A stretch of 64,000 nucleotides of DNA from Eledone cirrhosa (Eukaryota), in assembly GCA_964016885.1 (NCBI GenBank), contig OZ024740.1:304854001-304918000 (forward strand), in the 5' to 3' direction. The stretch's first letter is position 1, and each line of letters begins with the position of its first letter. A program made the translations under genes and the position numbers. The notes under the pieces were generated by a model, which was not told where the DNA came from, did not search any database, and saw nothing but the letters and a program-made list of their open reading frames with translations. Of the stretch, positions 351 to 58,925 are shown in pieces.

Positions 351-1528
351 TATTGGATTGAAACATAAATTCCCGCCGTTGTTATAATTTGTTTGTTTTC
401 ACTCTATTTTTTCCTGTTTGGCTTAGTGAATATAGTCATAATTTGTTGGAATAATTTGTTTAAACAACTTTATTTTACTTTTTTTTTTGTAGCATTTGAA
501 ATGAAAATTTCGGGTGGCAGAAAAACCCATTTTCAACACTTGCTTTATTTCGCTTTTCGGCGTAATCAAAAAGCCGCCAAAGCAGCTCGGGATATTTGCG
601 CCGTTTACGGAGAGGATGCTATAGCTGCGAGGACTGCTCGAGATTGGTTTGCCAAGTTCAAAAATGGCAACTTCGAACTAGATGACGCACCTCGCTCTGG
701 ACGACCTACCGAGTTCGACCAAGACCATTTGGAGGCGCTTTTGAAAGAAGACAGTCGCCAAACATGCAGAGAATTGGCCGAGAAGATGAACAGCAATGCC
801 ACCTTCAATCAATTGGTTTTACTCAAAAACTTGGAGCTTGGGTGCCACACGAGCTTACCGGGGGAAAAAAAAAAATTATACAGTATTGTCACGGGAGATG
901 AGAAATGGTGTCTCTACATCAAAATGAAGCAAAGGAAGGAGTGGGTGGCTTCAGGAGACACGCCAAAGCTGAGAGTTAAGAAAGACCTCCATCCCAAAAA
1001 GACCATGATCTGCGTTTGGTGGGACTGGGAGGGTCTTGTGCACTGGGAGATGCTTGAGAAAAACAAAATGGTCGACAAGAATCTCTACATAGCCCAATTG
1101 CATCGTGTAAATGAGGCTATCCAACAGAAAAGACCCTATTGACAAGACCAAGTCATCCTGCTCCACGACAACTCCAGGCCCCAGCTTTCAAACATTGTCA
1201 AAGCTACCCTCCAAGAGATTGATTGGGAGGTTCTTCAGCACCCACTGTATTCTCCGGATCTTGCACCAACTGACTATCATCTTTTCCGCTCATTGTCAAA
1301 CCAAATGAGGGGCGTAACCTTCGACAATGACGAGGACCTTGCAAATTGGCTTAATAACTTCTTCCAGTCCAGGTCTGGCGATTTCTGGCGAAATGGCATC
1401 AATACATTGGTCGATAGGTGGGAACAGGTCATAAACAATGACGAAGAATACATACTTGACTAATTTGTTGTTATTATTATTATTTTCAATAAAACTTCTT
1501 AATAAAAAAAAAACGGCAGGGAATTTGT
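351..1528 (+). mobile_element. Decayed mariner (DD34D) DNA transposon, near full length
   Basis: HTH region (TARDWFAKFKNGNFELDDAPRSGRP), AWVPHEL at ~836-856 (shifted frame), TGDEKW, LHDNSRP at ~1161 and HPLYSPDLAPTDYHLF at ~1238-1285. Frameshifts and a stop are present. Partial TIRs: aaattcccgccgtt (~367) and aacggcagggaattt (1512-1526). TA at 351. Confidence 0.92.
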
Positions 1529-9030: not shown

Positions 9031-9221
9031 TGTGGGTGGGGGGTGTTAACTCAAGTAGGTATAGTAGATAAGGCTCACAATAATTACAAAGGGCAGTGGA
9101 ACCCAAATGCCACCATTTTAGCAGTGTCATCCTCTTTCCAACGATGTTTTACTTTGAAAAGATTTTTTAACTGTCTTGTGTGATAAACCATTGTTGCAAT
9201 GGAAGTTATATAAAGGTATGA

Positions 9222-9337
9222 TTATGTTGATGATTTTGATGGTTTTGATGATGATAATGATGATGATGCTGAATCTGGATTGCTTCCACTCGTTGATGGA
9301 GCAGCTGTAGAAACCATTCCAGGTTGTTGGTCATCAT
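9222..9337 (-). CDS. PKI: cAMP-dependent protein kinase inhibitor (PKI), last coding exon
   Basis: Acceptor tttcattgtttttcag|AT at 9338/9337. Phase matches the phase-1 donor at 20687. Reads (D)DDQQPGMVSTAAPSTSGSNPDSASSSLSSSKPSKSST-TAA, a low-complexity tail as in PKI proteins. Total CDS is 270 nt (89 aa). Confidence 0.75.
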
Positions 9338-9802
9338 CTGAAAAACAATGAAATCTTGATTACAAACTGTTGTACATATGTTTGTTTGTGTTTGTTACTT
9401 GAGTTTTGACAAGATAGCTGGGGCCACCCTCCAGGTACTTCAAGTTGTACTCTGCCCATATTATCATGAAGTCCTTTTTAGGCATTACTTTATAGCTGGG
9501 TGACCTCCCAAACTTTTATTACATGCAGAGTTACAGCATACCTATTCTAAATGGGTAACTCAGAAATATATGTTGGCAATGATTGATGGAGGATAAGCAC
9601 CATGCCAAATATGGAAACAATATTCCATAATGAGATATATTTAGATCATGGAGAAATAACAAACAATTGTTTATGGCTGGAGTTCTTGGTTTTTGGAGAA
9701 GGACAAGTCTCCATATTACAGGGTTGGTGACTGATTCATAGAAAGTCACTGGAAATGATAAACCTTTGGAGATTATGAATCATTAGTGGAGAAGCATAAC
9801 AG

Positions 9803-10040
9803 TTAACCCTTTTGACATCAAAGAGGCCAAAACCGGCCCTCCCTGGTTCTATGAAAGAAAACTACCCATTTCAAACAATTCCTATATAAATTTATATCTT
9901 CCAACATAATATTATACAGGAACCATATGTTAAGTTATATTAGGAACGAAATAATTAATAATTTGAGTAAATCCTTCAAAATTCTGCATTAATCAATTGA
10001 AAGAATATATTTCTTTAGAAATACAGTAACTAAAGAGTTA
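9803..10040. mobile_element. piggyBac-like MITE, diverged (related copies ~14424-14670, ~22949-23187, ~55020-55240, ~56993-57200)
   Basis: ttaaccct... and ...aaagagttaa ends: TTAA target duplication with CCCT-like termini. Confidence 0.6.
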
Positions 10041-11489
10041 ATGAAATAAGAGGCAATATTTTATGGTTGGATCATCTTCCTGGCACCAACACTTTTAGTT
10101 GCCTCTTATGACATAAAGAGTATAGGGTAGCTATTCTAAATGGTGAGAAGAATTTTCAGTAGGTGGTTTACAAGTTACATATTGTCAAAAGCTATGCTAA
10201 TATCAAATGCAAAATAGATATCTAATCAAGAGGCCATTATAATACCATGTAAGAATATAGCAGAAGTGTAAACTATCAGTCAATCTCTGTGTGTTGGTTT
10301 GTGTTGTGTTAATAATATTACGTAATTATTAAACATAGATGTATTTATTGTGATATTTTTATAAAGGATGCCACAGAATGTACGATAGATAATGATTACA
10401 ATATTTTTGAGTAACAACTCTAGTCCCACACTTTTGAAGGTTTATTATAACATTCTGTGGCTCTTTTGAGCTTGCGCATTTTTCATGTCTAGTTTAATAT
10501 TTTTTTAAGGCAACGCTTGTAATAACTCTAGTTAAACATGATATATATTAATAATAAATTATCGTTGTAATGTAATTAGATTATATAATTGTTATTATAA
10601 ATGATCTTATAAATATTAGTGTAAGATGTATAAAAATATTTTCAGACTTTTAATATAAACAACAACAAAAAACAATCAATATTAAATCAATATATTATAC
10701 ATAATAGAAAACATAAAATAAATAAACAATATAAAAATAAATATTTACATACAATTGCAATTATCAGTCTATATAAATTTTCTTTATTCTCTGAGCAAAT
10801 TAATGAGATATATTACATTTGTTTTAAAAATAGTTAATATAAATTTTTTAAAATCATATAACGACGAAATAACAAAAATAAATGAACTAGGAAAACAAAC
10901 AAAAAACATGGCGGATGCTTTTGAGCAACACTTACTCTGATTGGTTGAAAATTAGCCAATGGCATGTAATCACCACGGCCAGACCTTGAAAAAAAATTGA
11001 CGATCTACACATATATGTTAGAACACTAAAAGTGACTAAAACATTCTGTTGTTAGTCACTTCGTGTCTAACAGATATATATATATATATATATATAAGTG
11101 CTGCAGAAAAGAATGCAATCCCTTGAACAGAAACTGCTACCCTCTTTCAGTTACCTATTAAGGATATTCTATTTTACATTGCCATTGGGAAAAGTATGAC
11201 TATCTCTTAATGTCTACTTTTCCTTGTATTCTTCTACTAACAGATACTTACTTCCAAACAACTAAGATTGGGTATCACAGCAGAGCCCCGTAGAAGGGAG
11301 ATAAGCACAGTTTGACCAGGCAAAAACCCACTTTTTGCTTAATAATTTTCATGTCAAAATACATCTTAGTAAGATTATTACACTTGTATGAGATAATTAT
11401 TGATTGGGTGATTATATATATATATACAAAAACATATGTGAGTGTGTAAATATGTATGTGAAGACACATACATATTATAGAAAGGGGTT

Positions 11490-11650
11490 AATTGTGGTCT
11501 GGAGAATTATAAATAACAAGAGGAACAGTGGACAGAGCCTTGATGAACACCTACCAGCACATTGAATTCCTCACTAAACTCATTATTAGTCTCACTTTAC
11601 TGGCAGAATCTCTCTACATGGTTTGTACTGCTCTCTCAAGCCACTCATAC
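11490..11650 (-). mobile_element. RTE RT fragment
   Basis: Reverse strand reads EWLERAVQTM*RDSASKVR..NNEFSEEFNVLVGVHQGSV, homologous to the ORF at 34596. Confidence 0.75.
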
Positions 11651-11755
11651 ATAATTGAGGATAACTTAGAAGCATGTACAATGCTTTCACTAATGCGTTA
11701 GTTGGGAGAGAATACAAACGCTCTCTTGGTCCTTTCACATATGGCCTAGCAAAAC

Positions 11756-12012
11756 CAGGGCCAGATTTAGACGGGGTTCATACACAAAAAAATTAGAATA
11801 CAAAGCAAACCCCCAATTTTACATATCAAAGTCAGCTTGGTGTAAGTAATTGGAATTGAAAAGTTATACATATAGGTATTAAATTTTAAAATATTTAACC
11901 ATCCTAAAACTAAAACAGCAGAGGACACAAATAAATTGCTAAAGCTGTCATTGGTGGGCCACCCACTGCAGGGGGCCCAAGGAAATTGACACCCTCATTA
12001 AATCCAGCCCTG
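11756..12012. mobile_element. hAT-like MITE
   Basis: TIRs cagggccagattta and taaatccagccctg. Flanks agcaaaac / agcataaa resemble a decayed 8-bp TSD. Confidence 0.7.
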
Positions 12013-13199
12013 AGCATAAAATCCAGGATGTGATAGAGGGAGAGAGAGTTGAACTAACACTATGCTGCTACTATCTTTGTTAACTCTGAAGAGATGGAAG
12101 ACAAAGTACACTTGGCTGGGTGAGCAAATATTGCAATACATCAAATCAATGCTCTAATGATTCTGTCAAATCAACTGCTTTAGGAATGACATCTAACCAC
12201 GAGTCCTTAACTCCTGATGGAGTTGTAGCAGCACCATCATTACTATAGTATTCAAACCTGGTGATGCCAAACCTTTTCCAAGTTGAAACAACCTATTTCT
12301 TCCAGAAAGAGTTAGAGAAGGAATCAACTCCTGTTTCAAACTGATACCTTAACTTTGAAAGGATGAAAGGAAAAGCTGGCCTCAGAGGGATTTGAACCCT
12401 GAGTACAGAGAGCCCAAACTACAAAGCCTTCTAACTGATCTTCTTATGACTGCCACTTTTCTGCTTTGAGGAATAACATACTGTAAACAAATATCTATCA
12501 TAATCTTTCTCTTTTTGATCATGGATACAGCTTAGACCAGCATTGTTTTTGTACACTTGGGTCTTGAATAATCACTCTTATTCCACCACCCCATCCCCAC
12601 TATTAAATTTTGTTAATATATCTCCAGTGAAATATTATTTTAAGTGGTTGCATCCCTGTGACAATTAATTTTCTTTATACATTTTAATGTATAAAAAGCA
12701 TTATATATGACAAAAAAAGAATATTACAAGAAATCTCATATGCTATAAAATAAATAGAATGGGTTGGGGTCTCAATATGTAAACTAAATGACTAATTCTG
12801 GTTTTTAAAAAAAAACAAGGAAGACCCCCACCTCCGGCTTATTCCAAGCTACCTTCCCTCCCTATTATTTGGGACCCAAGAGTAAAGCTTTTAGCATTTG
12901 GGAAAAACTGAATTTTATATAAGAACATAGACACAAATTTATATGAGAAAAAAAATCATATACTCGTTATTTGCAAGAACACAAGTGATACTTTTTAAAT
13001 TGAAAGCAAAATTAGGTTGCAGACATGGATCAAGAGAAATTTGCTGCCACGTTGCAATAGATGCCATAACATTTTGATGAATAATGAAAATAACCAAACA
13101 CAGCAGTTAGCTGCTAAATACCATGAGACTACTACAGCAATATGATATAGAAATGCTAGGAGGCTATTGTAAACATAAGAAAAATGGATTGCCAGGGCA

Positions 13200-13722
13200 C
13201 TACAGAATATTACAGAAATGTATTGTAGGGATATTGCAGGGTAGTAGAGGCTCTGCAGGAATGTGTTATACAGCTGGAATGTGTTGATGTGTTGTAAGGA
13301 TACATCAGAGAGGTATGGTATGAAGTCTGATGCTGCATGGGTTGTGACTGCAGAGAGCATGCATAGACTGGAGAGAAATGAAGCAACCATGCTTCGTTGG
13401 ATGTATAATGTAAATGTGAGAGAAAAGCAGATGAATTGAGGGAGAAAATGGGTTTAAGAGGAATCCGGAGTGATGTGAAGGAGAGAAGACTGTGTTGGTA
13501 TGGACATGTGATGTACATGGATGAAGACTGCTAGGTGAACAAGTGCCAGGAAATCCCAGTAGAAGGAAGTCACAGTAGAGGTAGACCAAGAAAGATCTGA
13601 GATTGAGAGAGCTAACCTCAAATTGCTGAGACTCAGAGAGGAGATGACAAGTGGGGAGATGCTGTGTTGAGAAGGACCCTTCTAACCATGCAAGTGTGGA
13701 AAAACAAACGTAATGATGATGG
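13200..13722 (+). mobile_element. Decayed RTE LINE 3' portion
   Basis: RLERNEATMLRWMYNVNVRE and WYGHV motifs, ending in a (gat)n tail. Confidence 0.8.
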
Positions 13723-15890
13723 ATACATCAGTGTTGAAATGACCCTGAAAAGCAGACAAAGATTTATAATAACAATGTTTGAAACTATAAAAATACTGCA
13801 ACAAGTGATGATCACAATAAAACTGGGGAAGGTATTAAAGGACACAGAAGGAATAGACCACAGAAATTATAAGGAAGTTTCTGTTAAACTACCATATATA
13901 CTTGCCTATAATCCCCACCTCCTATTTTATGTCTGAGAAATAGGTGAAAATCCAAACCCCATATATAAACCGAGGCAGCTAATCAACACATTGTCTAGAT
14001 AGCGTATATAAGCCAACCTCCCATTTTACCATCGATTTTTTTTTATAAACATATTCCTCAACTTATATTCAAATATATACAGTAACTTGAAGATTAAATA
14101 ACACTAAAAAAAAGCAACAGTTTAAATATGCAACTGAGGTGTATAAAAGTCTTATCTGTCTTAATCAGAGTAAAGTGGAGATTAATCATAGATATTTACT
14201 TACTAACAATAATTAGAGTGGCTAGACTTAATGACATCCTGCTTTGTTAATATTTGTTTTTAATTAGTAATGTAGAAATAATGGATTGCTATCAAAGTGC
14301 AAATGCAAAGGAATTTTAATTAGAATCGTGTTCTGGAGAGATGAATAATTTGCAGAAAGAGTAACATTAAGATTCCCAGAAATATTTGCTTCAATATAAC
14401 CCTTTCTCCTATGAATGTTCATCTTAACTCTTTTAATATCAAACTGCCTGAAACCACCCCTAGTCTAATGTGTTTGTGTTTATTTAAAAACCTTCCATCA
14501 TAATTTTATATAAGAACCTTTGTTAAGTTACGTTCCAAACATCCAAACATCACCTTAATAATGAGAAAGTTAGTTATATTATGAAACCCTTCAAAATTCT
14601 TGATTATTTTCAAAACTCTGAAAATCATAGATAATATCTTTTATTAGAAATATGGTAATGAAAGAGTTAATAGAATATCTTCCCCTGACAGTTCCCTAGT
14701 GTACATTCATTGAACAAAAACATCCGTTCTTGTACAAATCATTTGGACCAAATTGAAGGAATGTCATTCTAAGGATAAAAACAAACCACAAAGCTATACC
14801 AAATCTCTTAAGTGTATTGATAACATCAGCCATAATAATATGCCATGTGTGCTTGTGTATGTGTGTGTGTGTACATATATATATATATATCACTACCTGT
14901 AACTTTTTAAAATGTATACAGACACAAACATACATACACATAATGCATTTCCTATCTCAGTCATGTTGCTACAATAAGAAGTTTGCTTTCTAATCACAAG
15001 GTCTTGTGTTCTAACTTTACCTTTGTCCCTGTAAATACTTATTTCTTTAAAGTTACCCATACATTTAATCCTATATGTCATTTGTATATATATATATATG
15101 CTGAACACTTATGTAATGATATAGAAATAAATGATTGAAATATTCTTATCTTTAATCACTTCTATGTATCAGTAATCAATACAAAATATAGGGTTCATCT
15201 TTACACAAACTATTAATTTACGAAAACACAAATTTCCCAGAATGTAAGATTGTTCATCTGGTAATCTTGATATAGATGACATAGCAATCCTGGACTTCAA
15301 AAATGAAATACATTCAATGCTGTTGCTCCCATTATTGATAACACAGGTCCACTAGTACAGTAACAAGTCATACTAGTGTATGTAGATTAGTTACTGTTGT
15401 TTCTGTCACAACAATTCAGGCTTAACTTAGTTCATCTTTTTGAGTTCATTAGTTAAGCTGATATGGGAGTGTTAAGAAAACATTAGTATTGTAATATATT
15501 TCAATTGATTAAACAGAGAAACAGCTACAGCCATGACCTCCATAACACTGTCCCAAATTGATGAAATTGATGCAGTTAGTGTTTTGTCTAAACAGATGTT
15601 TATCTATGTCAGTTAGAAAAATCATGTGAAAGATGTGACGTCAAAACGAGATGACAAAGGAAGAGCTTCAACCTGTTGGAAATAGCAGCCAAATTTCCCT
15701 GAAATCCTACCCTACAGCCTTAATCAAGGAATGGTGGTATTAGATTGTGTGGTCCTACAACCCTTTCAGAAAGGAAGTTGTTCATGGCAAGAATGTCTTT
15801 GAACTAGAATTGACCTGGAGTTATACAGTAATAACATATGGTTATCATGAGAGACCCTCAGAAATGATAAGGTCTAGCTGTTAAAGTGAC

Positions 15891-16097
15891 TTTAACCCTT
15901 TAACAATCAAACCGGCCATATTCGGCTAGAAATGTCTCATCTCTTTCTGTTCAAACTTGATGTTAAGGTATTGTTCTCAAAATAAATAACATCAAAATCT
16001 CATAGATTCGATATTATATGCGATAATTATGTAAGATTAAGTGTTTACTACAAAATACAATAGTATATATAGAGTAATGTGAATGCTAAAGGGTTAA
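15891..16097. mobile_element. piggyBac-like MITE
   Basis: ttaacccttt...aaagggttaa. Same family as 19352-19566 and 49143-49333. Confidence 0.8.
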
Positions 16098-19000
16098 ATG
16101 TGTTAGTTATGTGGCAAGATTGTAGGATGTTTCCATGGTCAGTGATCATGGAAGAATTGCAAGGCTGGTGAGAGATGTCTATTCTGAATTTACCTGACAC
16201 TGTATCATCATCATCATCATCATCATTGTTTAATGCCAATTTTTCCAGGCTAGCATGGGCTAGACAAATTGTCCCATTGTGACATAGGCCAAGTCAGGTA
16301 ACCATGTCTTGCTCATACAGAACTGGTTTTGGCCTAGTTTCTACAGCTGGATGCCCTTCCTAACACCAACCACATTTACAGTGAGCACTGGGTGCTTTTT
16401 GTTGTGACATCTACACAACCACTTTACATTGTGGACTATGGATTTTGGTGGGGATTGGGGAGGTGGGCATATGAGTGTGTGTGAAGGGCAGAGTTTTTGG
16501 ACATGGGAGGTGAATGGAAGGGAGGATGGAGGTGAAGGTGGTGCATACTAGATATATGCTTTAGCCTGTGCTCAGTTTAAAGAAGTATGTGATCAGAAAT
16601 AACAACTAATAGATTATTAATGTACAGAGTTGGTGATAGAACTGAATATATACAAATTTATTCACAGAGATTAAGGAATTTAAAATGAGATTTTACAAGT
16701 GAGTTTAATCCTTCTGTTACCAACCTGGCCCTCATTTGTAATGTCAACTACGTGAACTTGCCTGGTTAATATTATAAGGCAAAAAAATGAGGCCAAAAAC
16801 TTCATAATATGCTTGTAATAATATTCTTTCTGTTTTTAGGTGTAAGTATGGCAATGGTACCGACCCAGAATCACAACAATCTATAAATTGATTGCAAGCA
16901 GCATTAGATACTTGTGGACATTGTTCAATGTTCATTGGATTCTGTTTGTCTTGACATTACATAAACACTCTTCAAAGAATAAGCAGTGTACCTAAAAAAA
17001 TCTGTTTGTGCAAGAATTTTAGAAGCTGCACACTTCAGCAGATTTTTATTAGTGCAATAATTTTATAGAAAGGGAGATCTTTACATTTTGTTTTGTTTAT
17101 AATATCATATTCTCCAACTGATAAAGCCTTCCTTGCTTCATTTTCTATAATAGGATACATTATGTATTCTTGACTAAGTAAATTAACTAAGGTTAGGTAA
17201 TGTTTACATGACAAGAACTCATTATTAAAGTGTTAGTCTCACTTCGAAATGATATGTACTCATTTTAAAATTATTATTCTCACTTTGATCTGGCATGTGC
17301 TCAATTTGAAATTATTATTCTCATTTTGAACTGACATGTCCTCACTTGGTAATACTGTGGTCAGCCAACGAACTTCCAACACAAAAGTTGAGATATGGAT
17401 GGAACCCAAACTAACCAGGAGATTTTCAACCCACTTATGATAAAACTCTTTCCTCATGTCAAGTGCATAAAACACACCAGGTAAGTGTAAATAATTAAAA
17501 AATTAGGTTAGGTGAAGGTGACCTGCAAAGTATTTAATGAATTTCAAATGAAGCAAAACAAATACTTTGATTTTCAGTGAAGTATATTTCATACCTGGTT
17601 CATTAAGAATAACATTGAAGATATGATAGAGATATTTTTTAGAATGGAAAAAGAAGTTGCCCGAATGAATAGTAACTAGCCATAATGTTTTGAAATGGTG
17701 GAAGTTTGGGGCAAACAAAATTTATTGGACAGGAAGATCTTTTACAAATCTTATTTGATAAACCTATTCCTTTAAAATTATAACAAAATATATAACAGAA
17801 AGCAAATTAATAAGATTATCAATAATAATAGAAGAAAGTGAAGCTGAGGCAATAAACATTTATACAACTAATAAAATATTTGTTCAGCTGTTACAATGGA
17901 AAGAATTATTTATTTAATAATCTAACAATTGATATTAACATTGGATTTGATTGATATGAGTTTCAAACCAAATCTGACAAATACTCAAAATAGCTGTCCT
18001 ATATAACTGCACCAATCTTAAATAGTCGTAGAGTCTGTGTTAACTGTATCCATGGCAATGCACTTTCACAAAATAATGTAAGAGAGAGAAGAAACAAAGA
18101 ACTGACTTAATCTTAGATTTAACAGTGAAAAAAATCAAACAAAGGTAAGTCTTCTTTTTTGATGGAGAAAACATTTGCTTAGATATTGTAACTGATTCAA
18201 GGATCTACAGGAAAGCTAAAAATCATCATCATCATCATCATCATTGTAGTTTTAACATCTGCTTTTGTTTTAAAATGATGATGATAATGATGATGATGAT
18301 TTCCAGCTTACCATCTACGTCAAATGCGGAAAGTTGTTCTAACAATATTATAACCAAAACACAAATAATTATGTTTATTCTTGTTTCAGACTGTCCATAC
18401 AAACTTAGAATATTTTCTTCTTTATCTGCCAAGCATGCTGTAGTGAAACGTAACAACTGCCATTATAGTTTATTGTTAATATTTAATTGGAACTACAGTC
18501 GCTGCTGATGAATTACTGCAATAGAAACATCATCTATATATTAACTATATCATCAGCAGCAGCAGCATTGCTTATGCACCTAGTCCACACTGTAAAGTGG
18601 TTATGTAGGTGTCACGACAAAAAGCACCCAGTACACACTGTAAATATGGTTGGCATTAGGAAAGGCATCCAGCTGTAGAAACCAAGCCAGAAACAGTTCT
18701 GTGTGACCTGACTTGCCTCAAATGGGACAACTCGTCTAACCCATGCTAGCATGGAAAATAGACGTTAAATGGTGATGATGATGATGTTTTTACTCCCCAT
18801 GACAGCTTCAGTTGGGCAAAAGTTTGATGCACTATTCTATGCCTAGATGCCCTTCCTGACACAAACTCTTGTATATCTTTTTAAAAAGTAAGAGTGGTTG
18901 TCTTGCTCGCATAGGACTGTCTGGCATGTTTTCTACAGCTGGATGCCCTTCCTAACACCAACCACATATATATATATATGGCAATTAAACAGTGACAACA

Positions 19001-19306
19001 GAGTAGAAAAGATTCTTCAGTCACATGAAGAACATGACAACCTAGTGTTAAAAAGGTCTTCCTGACATAGAACAATGAACATCATGTGACCCCCAACCTG
19101 TCTAGTAGGATAGTAATGCTAATTAATGACCAGTCCAACCTATGCCATAATGGAAAATGCATGAAAAATGATGATGATAATATATTAATATCAATATTTG
19201 TTATTTTAACCCTACCAAGAATAATTAGTGTAGACTCAACTTCCTTGAAATAAATTCCAACAAAAAAGTTTTCCTTGACATCTATTTTATCTAATAGACA
19301 GGTTTT

Positions 19307-19770
19307 CCAGACATACATTAAAACCAGACATACATTAAAACGAGACTTACATTAACCCTTTAGCATTTAAACCGGATGCATACGGCCAGAATTCTCTCAC
19401 CCCTTTCTGTTCAAACTGGCCATAACTGGTTGCTCATACTTATGTTAAAGTATTGTTCTCAAAATAAATATCAAAATCTCGTAGATTTGATATTATGCGA
19501 GATAATTATGAGATAAAGTGAAAATACAATAGTAAATATAGAATAATGTAAATACTAAAGGGTTAAAACCAGACTTACATTAAAACCAGACTTACATTAA
19601 AACCAGACTTACATTAAAACCAGACTTACATTAAAACCAGACTTACATTAAAACCAGACTTACATTAAAACCAGACTTACATTAAAACCAGACTTACATC
19701 AAAACCAGACTTACATCAAAACCAGACTTACATCAAAACCAGACTTACATCAAAATCAGACATATTAAAA
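19307..19770. repeat. 17-bp minisatellite (aaaaccagacttacatt)n interrupted by a piggyBac-like MITE at 19352-19566
   Basis: About 3 units lie left of the MITE and about 12 right of it. The MITE is bounded by TTAA-ccctt...aaggg-TTAA at a TTAA of the repeat unit. Confidence 0.9.
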
Positions 19771-20004
19771 GCAACTATTTTCAACAACCATACCAAAAAT
19801 CAGATATGAAGAAACTATTACAGATATTATTTACAGTCGGAGTTTTAAAAATTTCTTGCAACAACATTACAATGGATACTTCTCAGTTCTACTGTTTGTA
19901 TCATCTGCCATCAGTCTGCACATACTAATTGCCATACTTTAAACTATAAACTCAAATACAACAGTTTCTAGTCACCAATCTTTATCATTCATTTTACTCA
20001 TAGA

Positions 20005-20200
20005 ATAATTGTTTCTACTTTTGGCACAAGACCAGCAATTATCCTAGTGCATTACTGGTACTTTATTTTATCGACCCCGTAAGGATGAAAAGCAAAGTTA
20101 ACCTCGGCAGGATTTGAACTAAGATCATAAAGGGAGGTAACTCTATGCTTCAAAGCATGGCATCCGACCCTCTACCGATACTGCCAATCCACCGCCATCA
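20005..20200 (-). mobile_element. tRNA-derived SINE with Nin/Deu-like domain (copies ~49665-49760, 54315-54490, 61650-61825, 61830-62015)
   Basis: Minus strand shows an A-box-like tggcagtatcggtag, B-box gttcaaatcc, a gcttttcatccttacggggtcgataaaataaagtaccag core and an (att)n tail. Multiple near-identical copies. Confidence 0.75.
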
Positions 20201-20686
20201 ATGAATAATATGATTACTCATAGAATAATATGATTAAAATTTCATCGACAGCTATTTAAAATTTTGTGATTGAAGCAGCCTCCTAAAATGTAAATCTATG
20301 CCTCTTTTTCAGGAACTTTATGACATCATGGTGAATTAGATTCTCTAAACATTGATTAATAACTTGGTTATACTGTAGTACAATAAAGTGAAATATTAAT
20401 GAAGAGCTTAATGGATCAACATTCTAAGTTTACATCCAGACATCATGGAGTTTGTTTCTTATAAGAATAGGAAGGATACAATAAGTACACATGACACATT
20501 GAGAGAAGAGTTCTTGTATCTGGTAAGTGGTTTATCTGGATTGATTGTTCATTAGAAATATTTAATATTTATACTGTGTGATCTAAAGAAACTGAAGCTA
20601 CTCTCACCAAAAACATACAAACACACCATCAACAAAACATCTTGTACCAACAACTGACAAACAAAAAAAACAAACTTAAAATTTAC

Positions 20687-20840
20687 CTGTGCACTTTAAC
20701 TTTTCTAGTTCATAAGGTAGGTCACCTGTACCAACTTTTGCCAATTCATCTTGTATGATGTTGGTCAAGGCATTCCGCCGTCCAGTACGTCCACTTGCTA
20801 TGAAGTCCTGGAGATGAGTGCTAACATCTACATCTGTCAT
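20687..20840 (-). CDS. PKI: cAMP-dependent protein kinase inhibitor (PKI), main coding exon
   Basis: Translates MTDVDVSTHLQDFIASGRTGRRNALTNIIQDELAKVGTGDLPYELEKLKCT. DFIASGRTGRRNA is the PKI pseudosubstrate signature and LPYELEKLKC is NES-like. Acceptor tttcag at 20875-76, ACC-ATG-A start context, donor CAG|GTAAAT at 20686. Confidence 0.95.
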
Positions 20841-21437
20841 GGTACGTGGTTGAATTGTACTTGAAGAAATATTTCTGAAAATATATTAAAAATAAATAAT
20901 GTTAGGAATAAATATCTTACAAATATGTTTAATAATGTATATCCCCATCTAATTTGCATTTTAAAGATTTGACAGTAGTTAGTTCTATGAGTATTTAGAA
21001 ATACAGATTAATCCATACAAAATTTACTACAGCTCTTGTGTATGTCTTATTGCTGTTTTAAACCACATACCATGGTTAAATGTTATTGAGAAACTTATGT
21101 TAAACCTGTACACTCGTTTTTTAATACAATAGATGATTAATTAGACAAATACTCTTGGTTTGCGAATAATTGCCTCCACCCCATCCCACGTTTATTAAAT
21201 TTTGCTAATCGATCTCCGGCAAAATTTTAATTTAAGTGGTAACATTCCTGTGACAATTTTCTTTAGACATTAAAAAACATTATACATGACAAAAACGTGC
21301 ATTACTAGAAATCCTATACATTATAAAATAAATAGGATGGGTGGGGGTTCCAAAACTAAACGACTAATTCTGGTTTTTAAAAATCAAACAAACAAGAGAG
21401 ACAACCTAGGAAAATTATCGATTCTGAAATCCATTTG

Positions 21438-26799: not shown

Positions 26800-28637
26800 G
26801 AGGACCGTATTTAAACATTTAAACTTTTAACCCCTGCTCCTTCCTATCTTCTCCTCCTCCCCTACATCATGCTGGTTCTTATTTAAACCTTACCTTCTCG
26901 CTAACAACTCAACATCCCTCCCATCCGCCCCCACGCACCACCATTATTATTACGTGGACCAATCATAAGTCAGAGGCCTATACTATCGCTTACCTGGTTG
27001 CCTTTCGATATGATGGATGGACTACGGAATTCTGGAGAGTTGAAGAGAGAGAAATCTGGACGCTCAGCAACAATGCCAAAGATAAAGACAAATTCACCTC
27101 GTGGACAAGAATGCGAGCACTCCTCCTCTTTGTTTCGGCCGCGGATGGCTAACATAACCCCATCTCCCCCCGCCCCCCTCCAAACGCAATCCAAAACTTC
27201 AGAGTTGGTACCATGAATGTAGGCACCTTAAAGGGTCGCTCTAACGAGGTTGTAGAAATGCTTGAACGTAAGGAGGTCGATGTTTGTTGTATTCAAGAGA
27301 CCAGGTGGAGGGGTGGGTCTGCTAGATTCATTGTGGGTAAAAAACGATGCTATAAGCTTTTCTGGGCGGGAAATGACAACGGGCTAGGTGGAGTAGGAAT
27401 CATGGTAGCAGAAAAGTGGGCAGATAAGATAACAGACGTAAATAGAGTGAACGACAGAATAATTAAAATAAGACTTGTCCTCAATAGAACTACTGTGACA
27501 GTAATATCTGCGTACACACCCCAATCCGGACTGCCCGGCACTATAAAAGACAGATTCTATGAGACACTGATGCTCACTACCTCCCAAATAACCAAATGCA
27601 AACAATGGGTACACAAGAGATGTAGCGGGATCTCAGGAAGCTTAATTAAGAATGTAGGATTCACATGCAGCAGCTGTACTGAGACAGCAGGCAGCAAACA
27701 GCCACAGGAAACAAGTACCACCAATCTCTGGGAGGGCCCTGTAGAAACAGTAGACAGCTTCTGCTACCTAGGTGACCGAATTAGCAGCGGAGGTGGGTGT
27801 TCAAAAAGTACAATAACTAGGGTAAGAACGGGATGGAAGAAGTTTAGGGAACTACTACCACTGCTAGCTGCAAAAGGCTTCTCCCTCAGAATGAAAGGCA
27901 GACTGTATGATGTGTGTATCCGAACAGCGATGTTGCATGGTAGTGAGACCTGGGCGCTGAAGGTGGAAGACTTATGTAGATTAGAGAGAAACGAAGCCTG
28001 CATGCTCCGATGGATGTGTAACAGTAATATACGTGAACGACAAAGTATAAATGAATTGAGAGAGAGACTGAGCATAAGAGGAATCAAATGCTGTGTGCAG
28101 GAGAGGCGGTTGCGCTGGTATGGACATGTGATGCGTATGAAGGATGACAGCTGCATAAAAAAGTGCAGAGCCCTAGAAGTTGATGGAAACCGCGTAGTGG
28201 GGAGACCCAAGATGACCTGGGATGAGGTGATAAAAGCCGACATTACCCAATTACACCTCTCAAAGACATTGACACACGACCGTGACTTCTGGTGTCACGC
28301 AGTAATACAGAGTACCCGACCTCCCATGGGTACAAGCTGAAGCATATAGACAATATGCCCCCACACCCCCCACCGCAAGGTGGTCGTGGAGGTGCCACGG
28401 CAAAAAAGCACCCAGCCCACACTGTAAAGTGGACGTGTAGGCGCCACGGAAAAAAGCACCCAGCACTCACTGTAAATGAGATTGGCGTTAGGAAGGGCAT
28501 CCAGCTGTAGAAATCAAGCCAGATCAGTTCCTGTATGAGCAAGGCATGGTCAGCCGACCAGACACTGCCCACAACAGGACAACCCGTCTAACCCATGCTA
28601 GCGTGGAAGAACGGACGATGATGATGATGATGATGAT
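26800..28637 (+). mobile_element. RTE-clade LINE, internally deleted (ORF 27213-28340)
   Basis: APE endonuclease N-terminus (NVGTLKGRS...DVCCIQETRW...VISAYTPQ) is fused in frame to the post-YADD part (CKQWVHKRCSG, FCYLG, LHGSETW, RLRWYGHV). The RT core is missing. RTE 3' UTR and (gat)n tail present. Confidence 0.92.
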
Positions 28638-34580: not shown

Positions 34581-36243
34581 TAAGCTATACAAGCCATGTA
34601 TAAAGAAACAGTCAGCAAGGTTAGAATTAACAACGAATATAGTGAAGAGTTTAGCGTAAAAGTTGGCGTTCATCAGGGCTCCGTCATTAGCCCCCTACTA
34701 TTTATTATTGCCCGTCAGGCTATAACAGAGGAGTTCAAGACCGGCTGCCCATGGGAACTCCTATATGCAGATGATCTAACGCTCATAGCTGAATCTATGG
34801 CGGAACTAGAGAAGAAATTCCAAACATGGAAGCATGGCCTAGAATCAAAAGGCCTTAAAGTTAACTTGTCTAAGACTAACGTTCTAGTTTGTAGGAAGGA
34901 AAATAGGGCACTGGTCCCATCTGGGAAATGGCCATGCTCAGTGTGTAGAAAAGTAGTAGGCAGAAACTCCATTTCATGTACCAAATGCAAAGTATGGGTG
35001 CATAAAAGATGTAGTGGGATCACAGGTAAGCTAACTAAGAATATAGATTTTATATGTGGCCGTGCTCTGGTGCAATAAGTAGCAGCAAGTGCCCAGAGAA
35101 TACTAGCTCATTCCATTGCACAGATGGTTCTATAGAAATAGTGGACAGCTTCCGTTACCTGGGTGACAAAATCAGCAGTGGGGGAGGGTGCTCTGAAAGT
35201 ACAGAAGCTAGAGTCAGAACGGGATGGAAAAAGTTCAGAGAGCTTATACCACTATTGGCTGCTAAAGAGTTCTCTCTAAAAATGAAAGGAAGGCTGTATG
35301 ATGCCTGCATACGAACAGCAATGTTACATGGCAGTGAGACCTGGGCATTGTGTGCAGAGGATATACGCAGACTGGAGCGAAACGAAGCCTGCATGCTCCG
35401 CTGCATGTGTAATAGTAATATACGTGAACGGCAAAGCATAAACGAACTAAGGGAGAAATTAGGAATAAGAGGGATCAGATGTTGTTTGCTCGAGAGACGA
35501 CTACGTTGGTACGGTTACGGTCACATGATGCGCATGAAAGACGACAGCTGTATAAAAAAGTGCAAGGCGATAAAAATAGACGGTAGCCACGGAGTAGGCA
35601 GACCCAGAAAAACCTGGGACGACTTGATAAATTCCGACCTCACACACTTACACCTCTCCAAGACAATGTCACTGGATCGAGATCTTTGGCGCTACACAGT
35701 TATACAGATGACCCGCCTTGCCTAAGTACAAAGCGAAACCTAGTCAGTAGGCACCTCTAACAAAATACACCCCCATCCCACTACCCCAACCACACTACCC
35801 CCTTAAATGTGAAGTTATGTTGGTACCACAACATCCAGTCCGAAACAAATGAGGTCGTGTAGGCGTCACGACAAATAAAAAACACACAGTCCACGCTGTA
35901 ATGTGGCCGTGTAGGTAACACGGTAAAAACCTCCCAGTACACACTGTAAACGTCGTTGGTGTTGGGAAGGGCACCCAGCCGTAGAAAACCCGCCAGACGT
36001 GTAGGTGTCACGACAATAAAACACACAGTCCATGCTGTAATGTAGCCATGTAGGTAACACGGTAAAAATCTCCCCGTCCACACTGTAAACGTGGTTGGTG
36101 TTAGGAAGGGCATCCAGCCGTAGAAAACCCGCCAGACAGTCCTGAGCAAGACAACCAATCTTGCCTCAAGTGGGACAATTCCCGTCCAGTCCCATGCTAG
36201 CGTGGAAAATAGACGTTAAACGATGATGATGATGATGATGATG
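34581..36243 (+). mobile_element. 5'-truncated RTE LINE with PHD-like insertion
   Basis: GVHQGSVISPLLF, LLYADDL, CSVC..CTKC..VHKRC..CGRC, FRYLG and RLRWYG. One frameshift near 35065. (gat)n tail. Confidence 0.93.
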
Positions 36244-36304: not shown

Positions 36305-37466
36305 TCATCATCATCAACGTTTAACGTCCGTGTTCCACGCTTGCATGGGTTTGGACGGGGGTAGTCCCACTTGAGGCAAGAGTGATTGTCTTGCTCGCAT
36401 AGGACTGTCTGGCAGGTTTTCTACAGTTGGATGCCCTTCCTAACACCAACCACATTTACAGTGTGGGTCTGGGAGGTTTTTACCGTGTTGCCTACACGGC
36501 CACATTACAGCGTGGACTGTGTGTTTTTTTGTCGTGACACCTACACGATCTCATTTGTTTCGGCCTCGATGGCGCGGCACCAACATAACTTTACATAGAA
36601 CGGGGTGGTGTGGATCGGGTGGGGGTGGGGGTGGTGGGACGGGGTGTATTTTGTTAGAGATGCCTACTGGCTGGAGTAGGTTTTACTATATATTTAGGTA
36701 AGGCGGGTCTTCTCTGTTACTGAGTACCGCCAAAGGTCTCGGTCCAGTGACATTGTCTTGGAGAGGTGTAAGTGTGTGATGTCGGAGTTTATCAGCTCGT
36801 CCCAGGTTTTTCTAGGTCTGCCTATTCCGTGACTACCGTCTATCTTTATTGCCCTGCACTTTGTTATACAGCTATCGACTTTCATGCGCATCACGTGTCC
36901 ATACCAACGTAGCCTTCTCTCGAGTAAACAACATCTGATCCCTCTTATCTCTAATTTTTTCCTTAGTTCGTTTATGCTTTGCCGTTCACGTATATTACTG
37001 TTACACATCCAGCGGAGCATGCAAGCTTCGTTCCTCTCTAGTCTGCGTATATCCTCTGCACACAATGCCCAGGTCTCACTGCCATGCAGCATTGCTGTTC
37101 GTATGCAGGCATCGTACAACCTGCCTTTCATTTTTAGTGAGAACCCTTTAGCAGCTAATAGTGGTATAAGCTCTCTGAACTTTTTCCAACCAGTTCTGAC
37201 TCTAGCTACAGTACTTTCAGAGCACCCTCCCCCACTGCTGATTTTATCGCCCAGGTAACGGAAGCTGTCCACTATTTCTATAGAACCCTCTGCGCAATTG
37301 AAAGAGCTAGTAGTTTGTGGGCACTTGCTGCTACTTATTGCACCAGAGCACCGGCCACATGTAAAATCTATGTTCTTAGTTAGCTTACCTGTGATCCCAC
37401 TACATCTTTTATGCACCCATACTTTGCATTTAGGACATAAAATGGAGTTTCTACCTACGCCTTTCC

Positions 37467-37467
<1 letters not shown>
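36302..37467 (-). mobile_element. 5'-truncated RTE LINE, same family, tail-to-tail with the previous copy
   Basis: ORF 36694-37545 from RKGVGRNSILCPKC onward is nearly identical to 34950-35725. (cat)n at 36302. Confidence 0.93.
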
Positions 37468-37498
<31 letters not shown>

Positions 37499-37499
<1 letters not shown>

Positions 37500-37950
37500 T
37501 GTTATACTTTGGGAGGGTCATGTTACCAATAAGAAACACACGCACCAGTTGCTTTCACTTCAATCTATTATAATAAATTTATAAATTTAGGAATTTATAA
37601 ATTTCCGGCATCTTGTTTTTGTGTGTCCAAAAACACAAAAACAAGATGGCGTAGGACAGAACAAAGGAGAGGCACAAAAAAACAAAAAAAAGAATCCCCA
37701 GTCACTAAAGAGGTCACAGAATGTGTGACGAAAGAACTTTGACAATATATAAACAACCATCTGGTTGTGGAACCAACCAACAAACCGGAAATTTATAAAT
37801 TCCTAAATTTATCAATTTATTATAATAAATTGAAGTGAAAGCAACTGGTGCGTGTGTTTCTTATTGGCAACATGACCCTCCCAAAGTATAACAATATCGG
37901 TTTCAACACACGTTTTCAGATAAAGAATCTTGCTAAACAAATTCAGAAAC
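37499..37950 (+). mobile_element. Penelope-type pLTR with ~110-bp inverted 5' copy and a core-mutated hammerhead (37701-37743)
   Basis: 37499-37608 is the inverse of ~37785-37895. gtca-CTAAAGA-ggtcaca-gaatg-tgtgac-GAAAGAACTT-tgac carries a G5A core change. Confidence 0.7.
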
Positions 37951-38856: not shown

Positions 38857-38916
38857 TTCCATTTACCAGTGGTTTCTTAAAAGCAAAAGGTTTTGCTTTC
38901 AATCCTCAGAATGAAA
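38857..38916 (-). ncRNA. Type I hammerhead ribozyme (inverse copy of 40790-40849)
   Basis: Reverse complement of the plus-strand motif at 40790. Confidence 0.8.
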
Positions 38917-39123
38917 AATCCTGGTTTGTTTATTGAATATGGATTCTAAAAACAAAAATGCAATCTATATGAAAGTGAGGCTGGAAAAGGGAGAAGGAAA
39001 GGAAAAATAAAATAAAATAAAACTACACATGCAAACACACACAAAAAAACACAAAAGCATACTTACACACACACACATATATACACATATAATTTGCACG
39101 CATACACATATACACATACACAC

Positions 39124-39161
<38 letters not shown>

Positions 39162-39271
39162 CATACATATATATACATATGTATATATATATACATATAT
39201 ATATAAAGAGCGTACACCTACACACACATACACATATATACACACATATACACATACATATATTCATACAT

Positions 39272-39314
<43 letters not shown>

Positions 39315-39352
39315 CACATACACACACACATACATATACACATGTACATATC

Positions 39353-39403
<51 letters not shown>

Positions 39404-40312
39404 ATACATATATACATATATATATATACATATATATACATACATACATATACACACATATACACATATACATACACACACACACACATGTGTGTGTACA
39501 AGCCTACACATACACACACACATATATATACACACACATATACATACATTCACACAAACATACAACGTACATACATACACATACATGAATGCACTCCACT
39601 ACATATTAACACACGCAAATAAATATAAGAAAAAAATATATAAATAATATTAACAAATATTTGACAGCGATACATGCCCCAGCTAACAGGACAGACACCA
39701 GTGGTAAGTATATATATATACACATACATATATATAAATATATATATACATATATACACACATACACGTACACATACACACATGCATACACATACACACA
39801 CACATATACATGTGTGTATGTGTAAAGCTCAGTATTAGATAAGACAAATGAACCTTACATAAACGTATATATAGTAGTAAAGTAATAAAGCCATACAAGG
39901 CAATTAATCCATTCACCAGAGGTTTCTTAAAAGCAAAAAAAGTTTCCTTCAATCTACAGAATGAAAAAATTTCGAACGTATGTATATATGCTTATGTGTG
40001 TATTACTTACCACGCGTGTCTGTCCTGTTAGCTGGGGCATGTATCGCTGTCAAATATTTGTTAATATTATTTATATATTTTTTTCTTATATTTATTTGCG
40101 TGTGTTAATATGTAGTGGAGTGCATTCATGTATGTGTATGTATGTACGTTGTATGTTTGTGTGAATGTATGTATATGTGTGTGTATATATATGTGTGTGT
40201 GTATGTGTAGGCTTGTACACACACATGTGTGTGTGTGTGTATGTATATGTGTATATGTGTGTATATGTATGTATGTATATATATGTATATATATATATGT
40301 ATATATGTATGG

Positions 40313-40353
<41 letters not shown>

Positions 40354-40391
40354 GATATGTACATGTGTATATGTATGTGTGTGTGTATGTG

Positions 40392-40440
<49 letters not shown>

Positions 40441-40789
40441 ATGAATATATGTATGTGTATATGTGTGTATATATGTGTATGTGTGTGTAGGTGTACGCTC
40501 TTTATATATATATGTATATATATATACATATGTATATATATGTATGTATATGTATATATATATATATATATATATTATATATGTGTGTATGTGTATATGT
40601 GTATGCGTGCAAATTATATGTGTATATATGTGTGTGTGTGTAAGTATGCTTTTGTGTTTTTTTGTGTGTGTTTGCATGTGTAGTTTTATTTTATTTTATT
40701 TTTCCTTTCCTTCTCCCTTTTCCAGCCTCACTTTCATATAGATTGCATTTTTGTTTTTAGAATCCATATTCAATAAACAAACCAGGATT

Positions 40790-40849
40790 TTTCATTCTGA
40801 GGATTGAAAGCAAAACCTTTTGCTTTTAAGAAACCACTGGTAAATGGAA
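40790..40849 (+). ncRNA. Type I hammerhead ribozyme
   Basis: tttcatt-CTGAGGA-ttgaaagcaaa-acct-tttgcttttaa-GAAA-CCACTGG-TA-aatggaa. 7-bp stem I, 11-bp stem II, GUA site. Confidence 0.82.
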
Positions 40850-49510: not shown

Positions 49511-50352
49511 CCCATTGAACCTATACCAGAAAGGAAAAACAGTCATTTGATGATGAAAATTATAATGACAACACTGAAAATGAGAAAATATTCAGCTGAC
49601 TAAAACCATCCATTCCCGATAACATGATGAATGATGATTATATTGACTCTTATTGTCATTGATTCTTATTTGCCTTTCATCCTTATAGGGTCGATAAAAT
49701 AAAGTACCAGTAATACACTGGGATAATTGCTGGCCTTGTGCCCAAAGTAGAAACAATTATCTATATTACTAAAACAGAGAATGTCTGTTTGTCTGTCTGT
49801 CTGTACAATCACTAAAACTCGAGAACCAGCCAACCGATTGTTTTCAAACTTTACACATGTAATACATATGGTCCTATTGAGTGTTCTGAGCAAAAAAAAA
49901 TTCCAAATTTTCCATGCCCTAGGGACCGCATTAGGCGATTTAGCGATCTCTTTCTCTCTTTCTTAGTCTTTCTCTTTTTAGATAGATACATAGATATTAT
50001 GTTGCACCCTTATAATATCCGTCTGTATGCCTGGCTGTCTGCATTACGTCATTATGACGCAGTGTGTGTGTGTGTGTAGTGTGTAACGTTTTTCGAAATA
50101 TTTACTTCTGCGTTCACGGATTTATTATTTTAGTTTCAGAAGATCCCGTTAAGGGTGAAAGCAGCGATTCTTTGCTTAAACTTTAATCTGTTATTTTAAT
50201 ATATATATATATATATATATATGCAAAAGTTCTATTTAAATTGTTGGGATACAACAAGAAAATATTTTTATAACTGATATAAAGCACTCAACAAGTATTT
50301 GGAGTAAATATACGATATTAACAAATGGAAACTATATTTATAAAACCATATC

Positions 50353-50417
50353 TATTTCATTATACATATTTCAAGGATACCATGTTAAATTATGGTATGC
50401 TTTCATCAGACAAAATA
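50353..50417 (-). ncRNA. Hammerhead in the inverted 5' pLTR
   Basis: Reverse complement of 53691-53755. Confidence 0.72.
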
Positions 50418-58059: not shown

Positions 58060-58925
58060 TTGAGTTGTCTTCACATAGAATGTTAACATCCGACCTCTTA
58101 ACATCACATGGTCAGGAACACCACTTGAGAACTGCACCAATCCTGTTTACCTTGGCGTACCCTGGACTGCACCCTCTCATTCAAGGAACACATCAAAAAC
58201 ACCAAATTGAAAGTCAGCTCCCGGAACATCCTACAGAAACTGACCAACTCCAAATGGGGAGCCACAGCACACACACTAAGATGTACTGCCTTGGCCCTGT
58301 GCTATTCCTCTGCGGAGTACACGTGTCCTGTTTGGGAGAGATCAACCCATGCCAGTAAACTAGACCCAGTGTTGAACAACACCTGCTGTTTGATCACTGG
58401 TTGCCTGAAGCCTACTAACCCGAATAACCTGCATCTCCTCGGTGGCATTGCCCCTGCAGATGTGAGACAGGAAGCTGCCAGCCGACTAGAGATCACAAAG
58501 GCTATCAGTGATGAACGCCACCTCCTTCATGGACCTGAACCTCCGGCCCAACGACTGAAGTCAAGGAGAAGCTTCCTCAGCCATGTCCAACCCCTAACAG
58601 CATCTCAGGAAGAAACCAGACTACAGCTATGGACTAGAAAGCTAGAGAATGACTCCCCTCCTATTGACATGGGAATCCCTCCCCCCTTCTGAAGCCCTCC
58701 CTCTTGGCTCAGAAGCACCATGGGTCCAGTGGAAGACACTCAACCGCCTGAGAACAGCTACTGTGGCCAGATGGGACTACAAGACCTTGTTTTCCCTCTA
58801 CTACCCTACCAGTGCAGCTTAAAAGATCTCGCAGAATTTAATAATAATGCAAAGGACTGTGTAAAGCAATGGGAAACTGCCATATAACCACATGCTTCGA
58901 AGATACGAAAAGAAGAAGAAGAAGG
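58060..58925 (+). mobile_element. 5'-truncated Vingi/Ingi-like LINE
   Basis: YLGV.LD..L followed by KLTNSKWGA..TLR.TALALCYSSAEY.CPVW..S.H..KLD..LN..C.LITGCLKPT. (gaa)n tail at ~58910. Clade assignment is from recalled motifs. Confidence 0.8.

What the first reader, a model, noticed from the sequence alone, without database searches (positions are those of the whole stretch)
9222..20874. Hidden 89-aa PKA inhibitor (PKI) gene in an invertebrate-type genome, missed by the ORF track
Seen: two short minus-strand exons with canonical, phase-compatible splice sites give MTDVDVSTHLQDFIASGRTGRRNALTNIIQDELAKVGTGDLPYELEKLKCTDDDQQPG...SKSST. Established: PKI proteins inhibit the PKA catalytic subunit through an F-x4-R-x2-RRNA-hydrophobic pseudosubstrate and export it through a CRM1 NES. 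They are mostly studied in vertebrates. The pseudosubstrate matches PKI-alpha (DFIASGRTGRRNA) as I recall it, and the NES (DLPYELEKLKC) resembles PKI-beta with Cys at the last hydrophobic position. Inference: a compact molluscan PKI relevant to cAMP-dependent neuronal plasticity, and small enough to be missed by annotation.
Basis: partly seen in the sequence, partly recalled or inferred. Interest (0 to 1): 0.7.

Follow-up and report, generated by a model that had tools for sequence, protein, structure and literature searches.

The report
Octopus-type protein kinase A inhibitor gene
This is a real, spliced, single-locus gene for a small protein of the known PKI family that likely switches off protein kinase A; its counterpart is already annotated in the common octopus, so it is ordinary, apart from a cysteine in its predicted nuclear-export signal that it shares with other molluscs and that the vertebrate versions examined lack.

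Summary
Observation confirmed. Minus-strand exons 20840-20687 and 9337-9222 give 89 aa. The first exon scores 54.1 bits on Pfam PKI, cut-off 25, and is the only PKI hit in the 3.0-Gb genome. A contig of run X24 joins 20687 to 9337 exactly (30 of 30 letters); contigs of three other organisms use the same donor. Not novel: the 90%-identical orthologue is annotated in Octopus vulgaris, as are PKIs of many molluscs and arthropods, and invertebrate PKIs are noted in print (PMC4674680). Additions: (1) an unreported coding exon 76 kb upstream predicts a second, 116-aa isoform; (2) the protein groups outside the vertebrate alpha/beta split; (3) the last export-signal position is Cys in 20 of 20 molluscs and 0 of 39 vertebrates and fails the strict NES consensus, so CRM1 export is open. 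PKA inhibition is inferred, not assayed; the neuronal role is untested. The scan had not noted this sequence before.

The parts
20687..20874 (-). Core exon (188 nt): 34 nt before the ATG at 20840, then 51 codons + 1 nt; holds both PKI motifs. Its acceptor is also in phase with an alternative coding exon that lies outside the window (G000:C1:304951104-304951246 = L005:3104-3246, minus strand), which predicts a 116-aa isoform
   Evidence: covered end to end with 0 differences by the X24 contig and, from 20865 down, with 12-18 differences by contigs of X1, X8, X12, X16; outside exon:
20766..20804 (-). Pseudosubstrate, residues F13-L25: Phe at P-11, Arg at P-6, P-3, P-2, Ala at P0, Leu at P+1; Leu10 stands where PKI-alpha has Tyr7
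   Evidence: 12 identical residues in a row with PKI-alpha chains in PDB; Phe and Ala invariant in 88 of 88 homologues
20691..20720 (-). NES-like amphipathic segment L41-x3-L45-x2-L48-x-C50 (class 1a spacing, Cys at the last position; the only Cys of the protein)
   Evidence: predicted helix 41-47, pLDDT 84 for residues 41-50; taxon census
9338..20686 (-). Phase-1 GT-AG intron, 11,349 nt, rich in dispersed repeats
9222..9337 (-). Coding part of the last exon: junction Asp plus 37 residues, Ser-rich low-complexity tail (14 Ser of 38), TAA stop
   Evidence: relatives' contigs are shorter here by 30 and 12 letters, both in frame
9040..9221 (-). 3' UTR, shown down to 9040 (edge of the stretch laid); would reach about 8308 if the X24 contig stays colinear (inferred)

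Best explanation
This is a spliced PKI-family gene, the only PKI locus found in this octopod-like genome, whose mostly unstructured 89-aa product likely binds the free catalytic subunit of protein kinase A as a pseudosubstrate and blocks it. Shown: gene structure, last splice junction, family membership, all pseudosubstrate anchor residues, an in-frame stop upstream of the ATG in the X24 transcript form. Inferred from vertebrate PKI: after cAMP frees the catalytic subunit, helix 6-15 docks Phe13, the Arg cluster fills the substrate groove and Ala24 sits at the phospho-acceptor site; without the Tyr7 equivalent the affinity is likely PKI-beta-like (low nM) rather than sub-nM. Inferred, weaker (about 55%): helix 41-50 still serves as a CRM1 export signal, probably weaker than that of PKI-alpha because Cys fills the last pocket. 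Predicted: alternative 5' exons give an 89-aa and a 116-aa form that differ only by an N-terminal extension.
For: Pfam PKI 54.1 bits vs cut-off 25; PDB PKI-alpha matches, best E 2.1e-5; one locus by protein, family and orthologue searches; junction in contigs of X24, X8, X12, X16; one listed substitutions in relatives fall in 10 codons, 5 silent, and change no residue of 13-25 and no NES anchor; O. vulgaris orthologue 90% identical over 51 aa and annotated PKI alpha-like; other molluscs have annotated N-terminal isoforms; AF2 helices 6-15 and 41-47; mechanism and the Tyr7 effect, Ki 0.2 vs 7.1 nM, from PMC7723848; CRM1 exons covering the NES-groove region are in the genome.
Against: No assay and no complex model. 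The AF2 model is of low global confidence (mean pLDDT 68, pTM 0.26). The export signal fails the traditional and PKI-class consensus; only 2 of 234 experimental NESs have an unconventional last residue, and the Kosugi consensus has 4% precision (PMC3442415); five other Kosugi-only matches occur in the same 89 aa. Asn27 replaces an Asp at a column that is at least 90% conserved in the 60-row alignment. The 116-aa form rests on genome sequence and homology only. The 5' exon of the X24 contig was not found in the assembly. This genome's PKA catalytic subunit was not examined.
Confidence: 0.88

Rival explanations
1. It inhibits PKA but does not export it through CRM1: the Leu-Leu-Leu-Cys helix has another job, for example a lipid-modified (S-acylated) or redox-sensitive anchor that holds the inhibited kinase at membranes or switches export on and off.
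For: Cys at the last NES position in 20 of 20 named molluscs, 1 of 1 annelid, 4 of 5 chelicerates, 4 of 4 crustaceans, 1 of 11 insects (Thr in 10), 0 of 39 vertebrates, which have V, I or M; 73 of 88 in the wider set. It is the protein's only Cys, flanked by Lys and Leu. Cys and Thr at this position mark false-positive NESs in PMC3442415.
Against: The class-1a spacing, the three Leu and the distance from the pseudosubstrate (the same in 70 of the 87 with a match) are kept as in vertebrates. Thr in insects and Phe in one mite fit a small-hydrophobic pocket as well as a thiol function. No acylation or redox datum exists; the set is biased towards hits resembling the query and holds no vertebrate PKI-gamma, nematode, cnidarian or invertebrate deuterostome by name.
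Confidence: 0.2
2. The locus is a decayed or silent PKI remnant, or the joined form comes from a processed copy elsewhere.
For: The 5' exon of the X24 contig is missing from the assembly, so the assembly is not complete and an unassembled copy cannot be excluded.
Against: Open frame, canonical splice sites, exon-only contigs in five runs of five organism codes (X24, X1, X8, X12, X16), in-frame length differences, invariant anchors, and a single genomic locus with no intron-less copy found.
Confidence: 0.02

Closest known systems
Octopus vulgaris 'cAMP-dependent protein kinase inhibitor alpha-like isoform X3' (P0126, 111 aa) and Argonauta hians GAB1597725.1 (P0006, 95 aa)
   Same: 90% and 84% identical over the 51-aa core; one group in the tree, 100/94; same Cys-ended helix, same Asn at position 27, and a matching N-terminal extension exon.
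   Different: Mainly in the length and letters of the Ser-rich tail and of the N-terminal extension. Computational annotations; no functional study seen.
Vertebrate PKI-alpha (PDB 3wyg_D, 1apm_I; PKIA)
   Same: Twelve consecutive identical residues across the pseudosubstrate; same order inhibitor helix - pseudosubstrate - NES helix - disordered tail.
   Different: Leu for Tyr7; last NES residue Cys for Ile; one gene found here against three in vertebrates (PMC7723848); lies outside the alpha/beta group in the tree.
Vertebrate PKI-beta (PKIB)
   Same: No Tyr7 equivalent; Asp-Leu-Pro start of the NES helix.
   Different: Last NES residue Val or Met in beta, Cys here; no closer to beta than to alpha in the tree (54 columns, gamma not sampled).
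Annotated invertebrate PKIs (Gigantopelta, Haliotis, Magallana, Mytilus, Homarus, mites; tick PKIB LOC8025090; C. elegans K09E9.4)
   Same: Same family and motif order; alternative N-terminal isoforms in Gigantopelta and Haliotis.
   Different: About 41-55% identity for the non-cephalopod molluscs listed; the tick gene is used only as a cell-type marker in the passages read (PMC13015885), K09E9.4 only cited by homology (PMC4674680, PMC9118485); these two sequences were not examined here.

Membership tests
PKI family (Pfam PF02827) | Profile match above the curated cut-off | tested here: met
   54.1 bits vs 25, E 1.9e-14; 51.9 bits in the genome search
PKI family (Pfam PF02827) | Pseudosubstrate Arg-x-x-Arg-Arg-x-Ala-hydrophobic, with no phospho-acceptor at P0 | tested here: met
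   R18, R21, R22, N23, A24, L25; aligned to PKI-alpha; Ala at P0 in 88 of 88 homologues
PKI family (Pfam PF02827) | N-terminal amphipathic helix with Phe at P-11 | tested here: met
   F13 invariant; predicted helix 6-15 at pLDDT about 65; Tyr7 equivalent absent, as in PKI-beta
PKI family (Pfam PF02827) | Small, largely unstructured protein under about 100 aa | tested here: met
   89 aa, 9.3 kDa, pI 4.65, Ser-rich tail; the predicted long form is 116 aa; heat stability not tested
PKI family (Pfam PF02827) | Leucine-rich class-1a nuclear export signal downstream of the pseudosubstrate | tested here: inconclusive
   Position and spacing met; last residue Cys fails the traditional and PKI-class consensus and passes the Kosugi consensus only
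PKI family (Pfam PF02827) | Nanomolar, ATP-dependent inhibition of the PKA catalytic subunit | not testable with these tools
   needs a kinase assay
PKI family (Pfam PF02827) | CRM1-dependent export of the catalytic subunit from the nucleus | not testable with these tools
   CRM1 exons are in the genome; export needs a cell assay
Vertebrate PKI-alpha or PKI-beta orthologue | Groups with one vertebrate paralogue | tested here: not met
   20 vertebrate alpha+beta rows form one side of a branch (98/89) without the cephalopod rows; few columns, gamma not sampled

The most novel reading that the evidence does not exclude
Protostome PKIs carry a conserved cysteine where vertebrate PKIs have the last export-signal residue; it turns the helix into a weak or switchable signal (S-acylation or oxidation), so the ancestral PKI traps PKA locally, possibly at membranes, and strong PKI-driven nuclear export is a vertebrate upgrade. 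A single-locus octopod gene makes this directly testable, with no paralogue found that would mask a knock-down.
Probability: 0.15. Interest if true: 0.55.

Novelty: new member of a known kind. Interest (0 to 1): 0.2.

Why it matters
As a gene find it matters little: the family is known, and the orthologue is annotated in Octopus vulgaris. It is useful as a correct model (exon structure, two isoforms, missing 5' exon) and as a clean test case: vertebrates have three PKIs whose physiological role is still unclear (PMC7723848), whereas one locus was found here. The clade-wide Cys/Thr versus Ile/Val/Met split at the last NES position asks whether the textbook export function of PKI is ancient or vertebrate-specific; my searches found no paper on it.

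Tried and rejected
Locating the 5' exon of the X24 contig: no match in the window, none genome-wide at 0 or up to 2 mismatches (a control 30-mer was found), no 14-mer in the window plus 600 kb upstream. The only assembly gap in that stretch is G000:C1:304974482-304974681, 23 kb beyond the alternative exon; the exon may lie there, or the 30 letters may span a further junction. No RNA holder listed: no evidence either way. The last exon alone has no Pfam match. ESM Atlas gave no answer for P0006. Papers: 0 hits for the PKI phrase with mollusc + transcriptome (36), with octopus (37), PKI + palmitoylation + insect (54), PKI + export + invertebrate + orthologs (70); listings showed no functional study of an endogenous invertebrate PKI by title or abstract start (one search listed 20 of 236); PMC3625193 passages had no bearing. 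The library lacks most subscription journals, and no supplements were read. Rejected: a disulfide to the reactive CRM1 cysteine (it lies near pocket 3, not 4, PMC4588050; reducing compartment, recalled); spliced-leader trans-splicing (about 790 letters precede the exon in the contig); a second PKI paralogue.
Full report
1. Observation. On the minus strand an AG acceptor precedes 20874, the ATG is at 20840 and a GT donor follows 20687. The last exon starts at 9337 after a pyrimidine tract and AG and ends in TAA at 9222. Joined, they give 270 nt and 89 aa across a phase-1 intron of 11,349 nt. The 51-residue exon product matches Pfam PKI at 54.1 bits against a cut-off of 25, E 1.9e-14; the tail matches nothing. 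In PDB all 6 sequences found are PKI-alpha or peptides like it, with twelve identical residues in a row in the three alignments shown. Searches of the 3.0-Gb own genome with the peptide, the Pfam family and the octopus orthologue each give this locus alone; the tool scores only its best candidates, so this is one locus found, not proof of one copy.

2. Splicing is shown. One 2,012-letter contig of run X24 (library kind not on record) covers 20877-20687 and 9215-9040 with no differences, 122 letters apart, which is exactly 9337-9216. Its 30 letters beyond 20687 equal window 9337-9308. Contigs of X8, X12 and X16, three other organism codes, stop at the same donor and continue in homologous letters. 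In X1 and X8 the stretch between the exon pieces is 30 and 12 letters shorter, both whole codons; 12 letters fewer gives 85 aa, the length of P0126 counted from its matching Met. Contigs of the large run X21 cross both exon borders without a break. The 12 substitutions listed for relatives (of up to 18 per contig) touch 10 codons; 5 are silent and none alters residues 13-25 or an NES anchor. Contigs give no tissue or level.

3. The gene is larger than reported. The X24 contig has about 790 letters before the core exon. The 30 letters next to the junction contain an in-frame stop (read by eye), so the 89-aa form is the expected product of that transcript form. That exon was not found in the assembly (control). 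The annotated orthologues have an N-terminal extension (P0126, P0006). Searching 264 kb with it found a minus-strand exon 76,229 nt upstream (L005:3246-3104), 12 of 16 residues identical, E 1.6e-5, ending in a phase-2 GTAAGA donor that fits the core exon, with an AG acceptor and an in-frame stop before its ATG. It predicts a 116-aa isoform; I had no read-laying run left to test it. Gigantopelta and Haliotis have annotated isoforms that differ in the same way.

4. Relatives and novelty. The word-indexed search found 3 relatives, the full scan of representatives 87, the profile search 2,036, of which 120 were listed. The nearest are Octopus vulgaris 'PKI alpha-like isoform X3' (90%) and an Argonauta hians protein (84%). 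Named homologues occur in limpets, abalone, vent snail, chiton, bivalves, an annelid, mites, decapods and insects. PMC4674680 (passages read) states that PKIs are found in many invertebrates but not in Drosophila; PMC13015885 (passages) uses a tick PKI as a cell marker; PMC9118485 (one table passage) lists K09E9.4 as the worm homologue. A tree of 58 named or own core sequences (54 columns; unnamed rows, isoform duplicates and some vertebrates and insects left out) puts the three cephalopod rows together (100/94) and the 20 vertebrate alpha and beta rows on their own branch (98/89); arthropods do not hold together, so deep order is unresolved. The gene is thus neither alpha nor beta but likely co-orthologous to the vertebrate set; gamma was not sampled.

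5. Mechanism. From PMC7723848 (parts 1-2 of 7 read): PKI binds the cAMP-freed catalytic subunit as a pseudosubstrate, binding unmasks an NES, and CRM1 exports the complex; PKI-beta lacks Tyr7 and is weaker (7.1 against 0.2 nM). Here every inhibitory anchor is present: Phe at P-11 and Ala at P0 are also invariant in 88 of 88 homologues (P0003-P0091 without the 1,650-aa P0082). Leu10 stands for Tyr7, so low-nM inhibition is the prediction. AlphaFold with 60 rows gives helices 6-15 and 41-47, the latter at pLDDT 84, in a model of low overall confidence. Inhibition is inferred (about 90%); this genome's PKA was not examined.

6. The export signal is the open point. L41-L45-L48-C50 has class-1a spacing at the vertebrate position, but no strict NES match exists in the 89 aa; this and five other segments pass only the Kosugi rule. 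PMC3442415 (passages and section 10 read) found 2 of 234 experimental NESs with an unconventional last residue, limits that position to L, I, M, V, F in the PKI class, and sees Cys and Thr there in false positives. Among 80 named homologues picked (unnamed rows and isoform duplicates left out), the residue is Cys in 20 of 20 molluscs, 1 of 1 annelid, 4 of 5 chelicerates, 4 of 4 crustaceans and 1 of 11 insects (Thr in 10), and V, I or M in 39 of 39 vertebrates. The sample is biased towards sequences like the query and lacks vertebrate gamma, nematodes, cnidarians and invertebrate deuterostomes. The conservative reading is a weaker but working NES: three Leu and the spacing are kept, and CRM1 is present. 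The bold reading is a thiol switch or lipid anchor. PMC4588050 (passages) places the reactive CRM1 cysteine near pocket 3, which argues against a direct Cys-Cys link. Four searches found no paper on these points; the library is partial and no supplements were read.

7. Verdict. A correctly spotted, spliced PKI gene, a new member of a known family whose orthologue is already annotated. The claims 'hidden' and 'neuronal plasticity' are not supported; export is undecided. Interest 0.2; the cysteine hypothesis has probability about 0.15 and would deserve about 0.55.

Noticed in passing
G000:C1:304951104-304951246 (L005:3104-3246, minus strand): Alternative upstream coding exon of the PKI gene, 76,229 nt from the core exon: ATG at L005:3150, 15 codons + 2 nt, donor GTAAGA; 12 of 16 residues identical to the N-terminus of P0126. 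It has its own acceptor, so at least one more exon likely lies further upstream.
   Followed up: partly
5' of window 20874, X24 contig: The exon that precedes the core exon in the X24 contig was not found in the assembly; it carries an in-frame TAG here, where contigs of X12 and X16 read CAG, so the frame may stay open in relatives (only 30 letters seen).
   Followed up: partly
G000:C1:304974482-304974681: A 200-N assembly gap, the only one in the 664 kb examined; candidate place of the missing first exon.
   Followed up: no
window 369-1463 (+): Mariner-type transposase remnant (Pfam HTH_48 and Transposase_1) interrupted by a stop at about 1140.
   Followed up: partly
window 27153-28340 (+), 34584-35725 (+), 36694-37554 (-): Fragments of a LINE-like element: endonuclease (below cut-off), reverse transcriptase and PHD-finger matches.
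   Followed up: partly
window 50240-52176 (+) and 58129-58692 (+): Broken open frames of 135-336 aa that look like retroelement remnants by eye; no Pfam match at E 0.001 for the three pieces scanned.
   Followed up: partly
window 38906-39698 and 40016-40800: Inverted duplication of about 795 bp at 98.5% identity with a spacer of about 320 bp, mostly microsatellite; recent fold-back or assembly artefact.
   Followed up: partly
G000:C2:368249439-368249537 and the next exon in L024: CRM1/XPO1 exons; the next exon keeps the Cys that by recalled alignment corresponds to human Cys528, so leptomycin B would likely work in this animal.
   Followed up: partly
P0042 (Tuta absoluta, 195 aa): A moth protein with three PKI-like stretches in one chain.
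   Followed up: no
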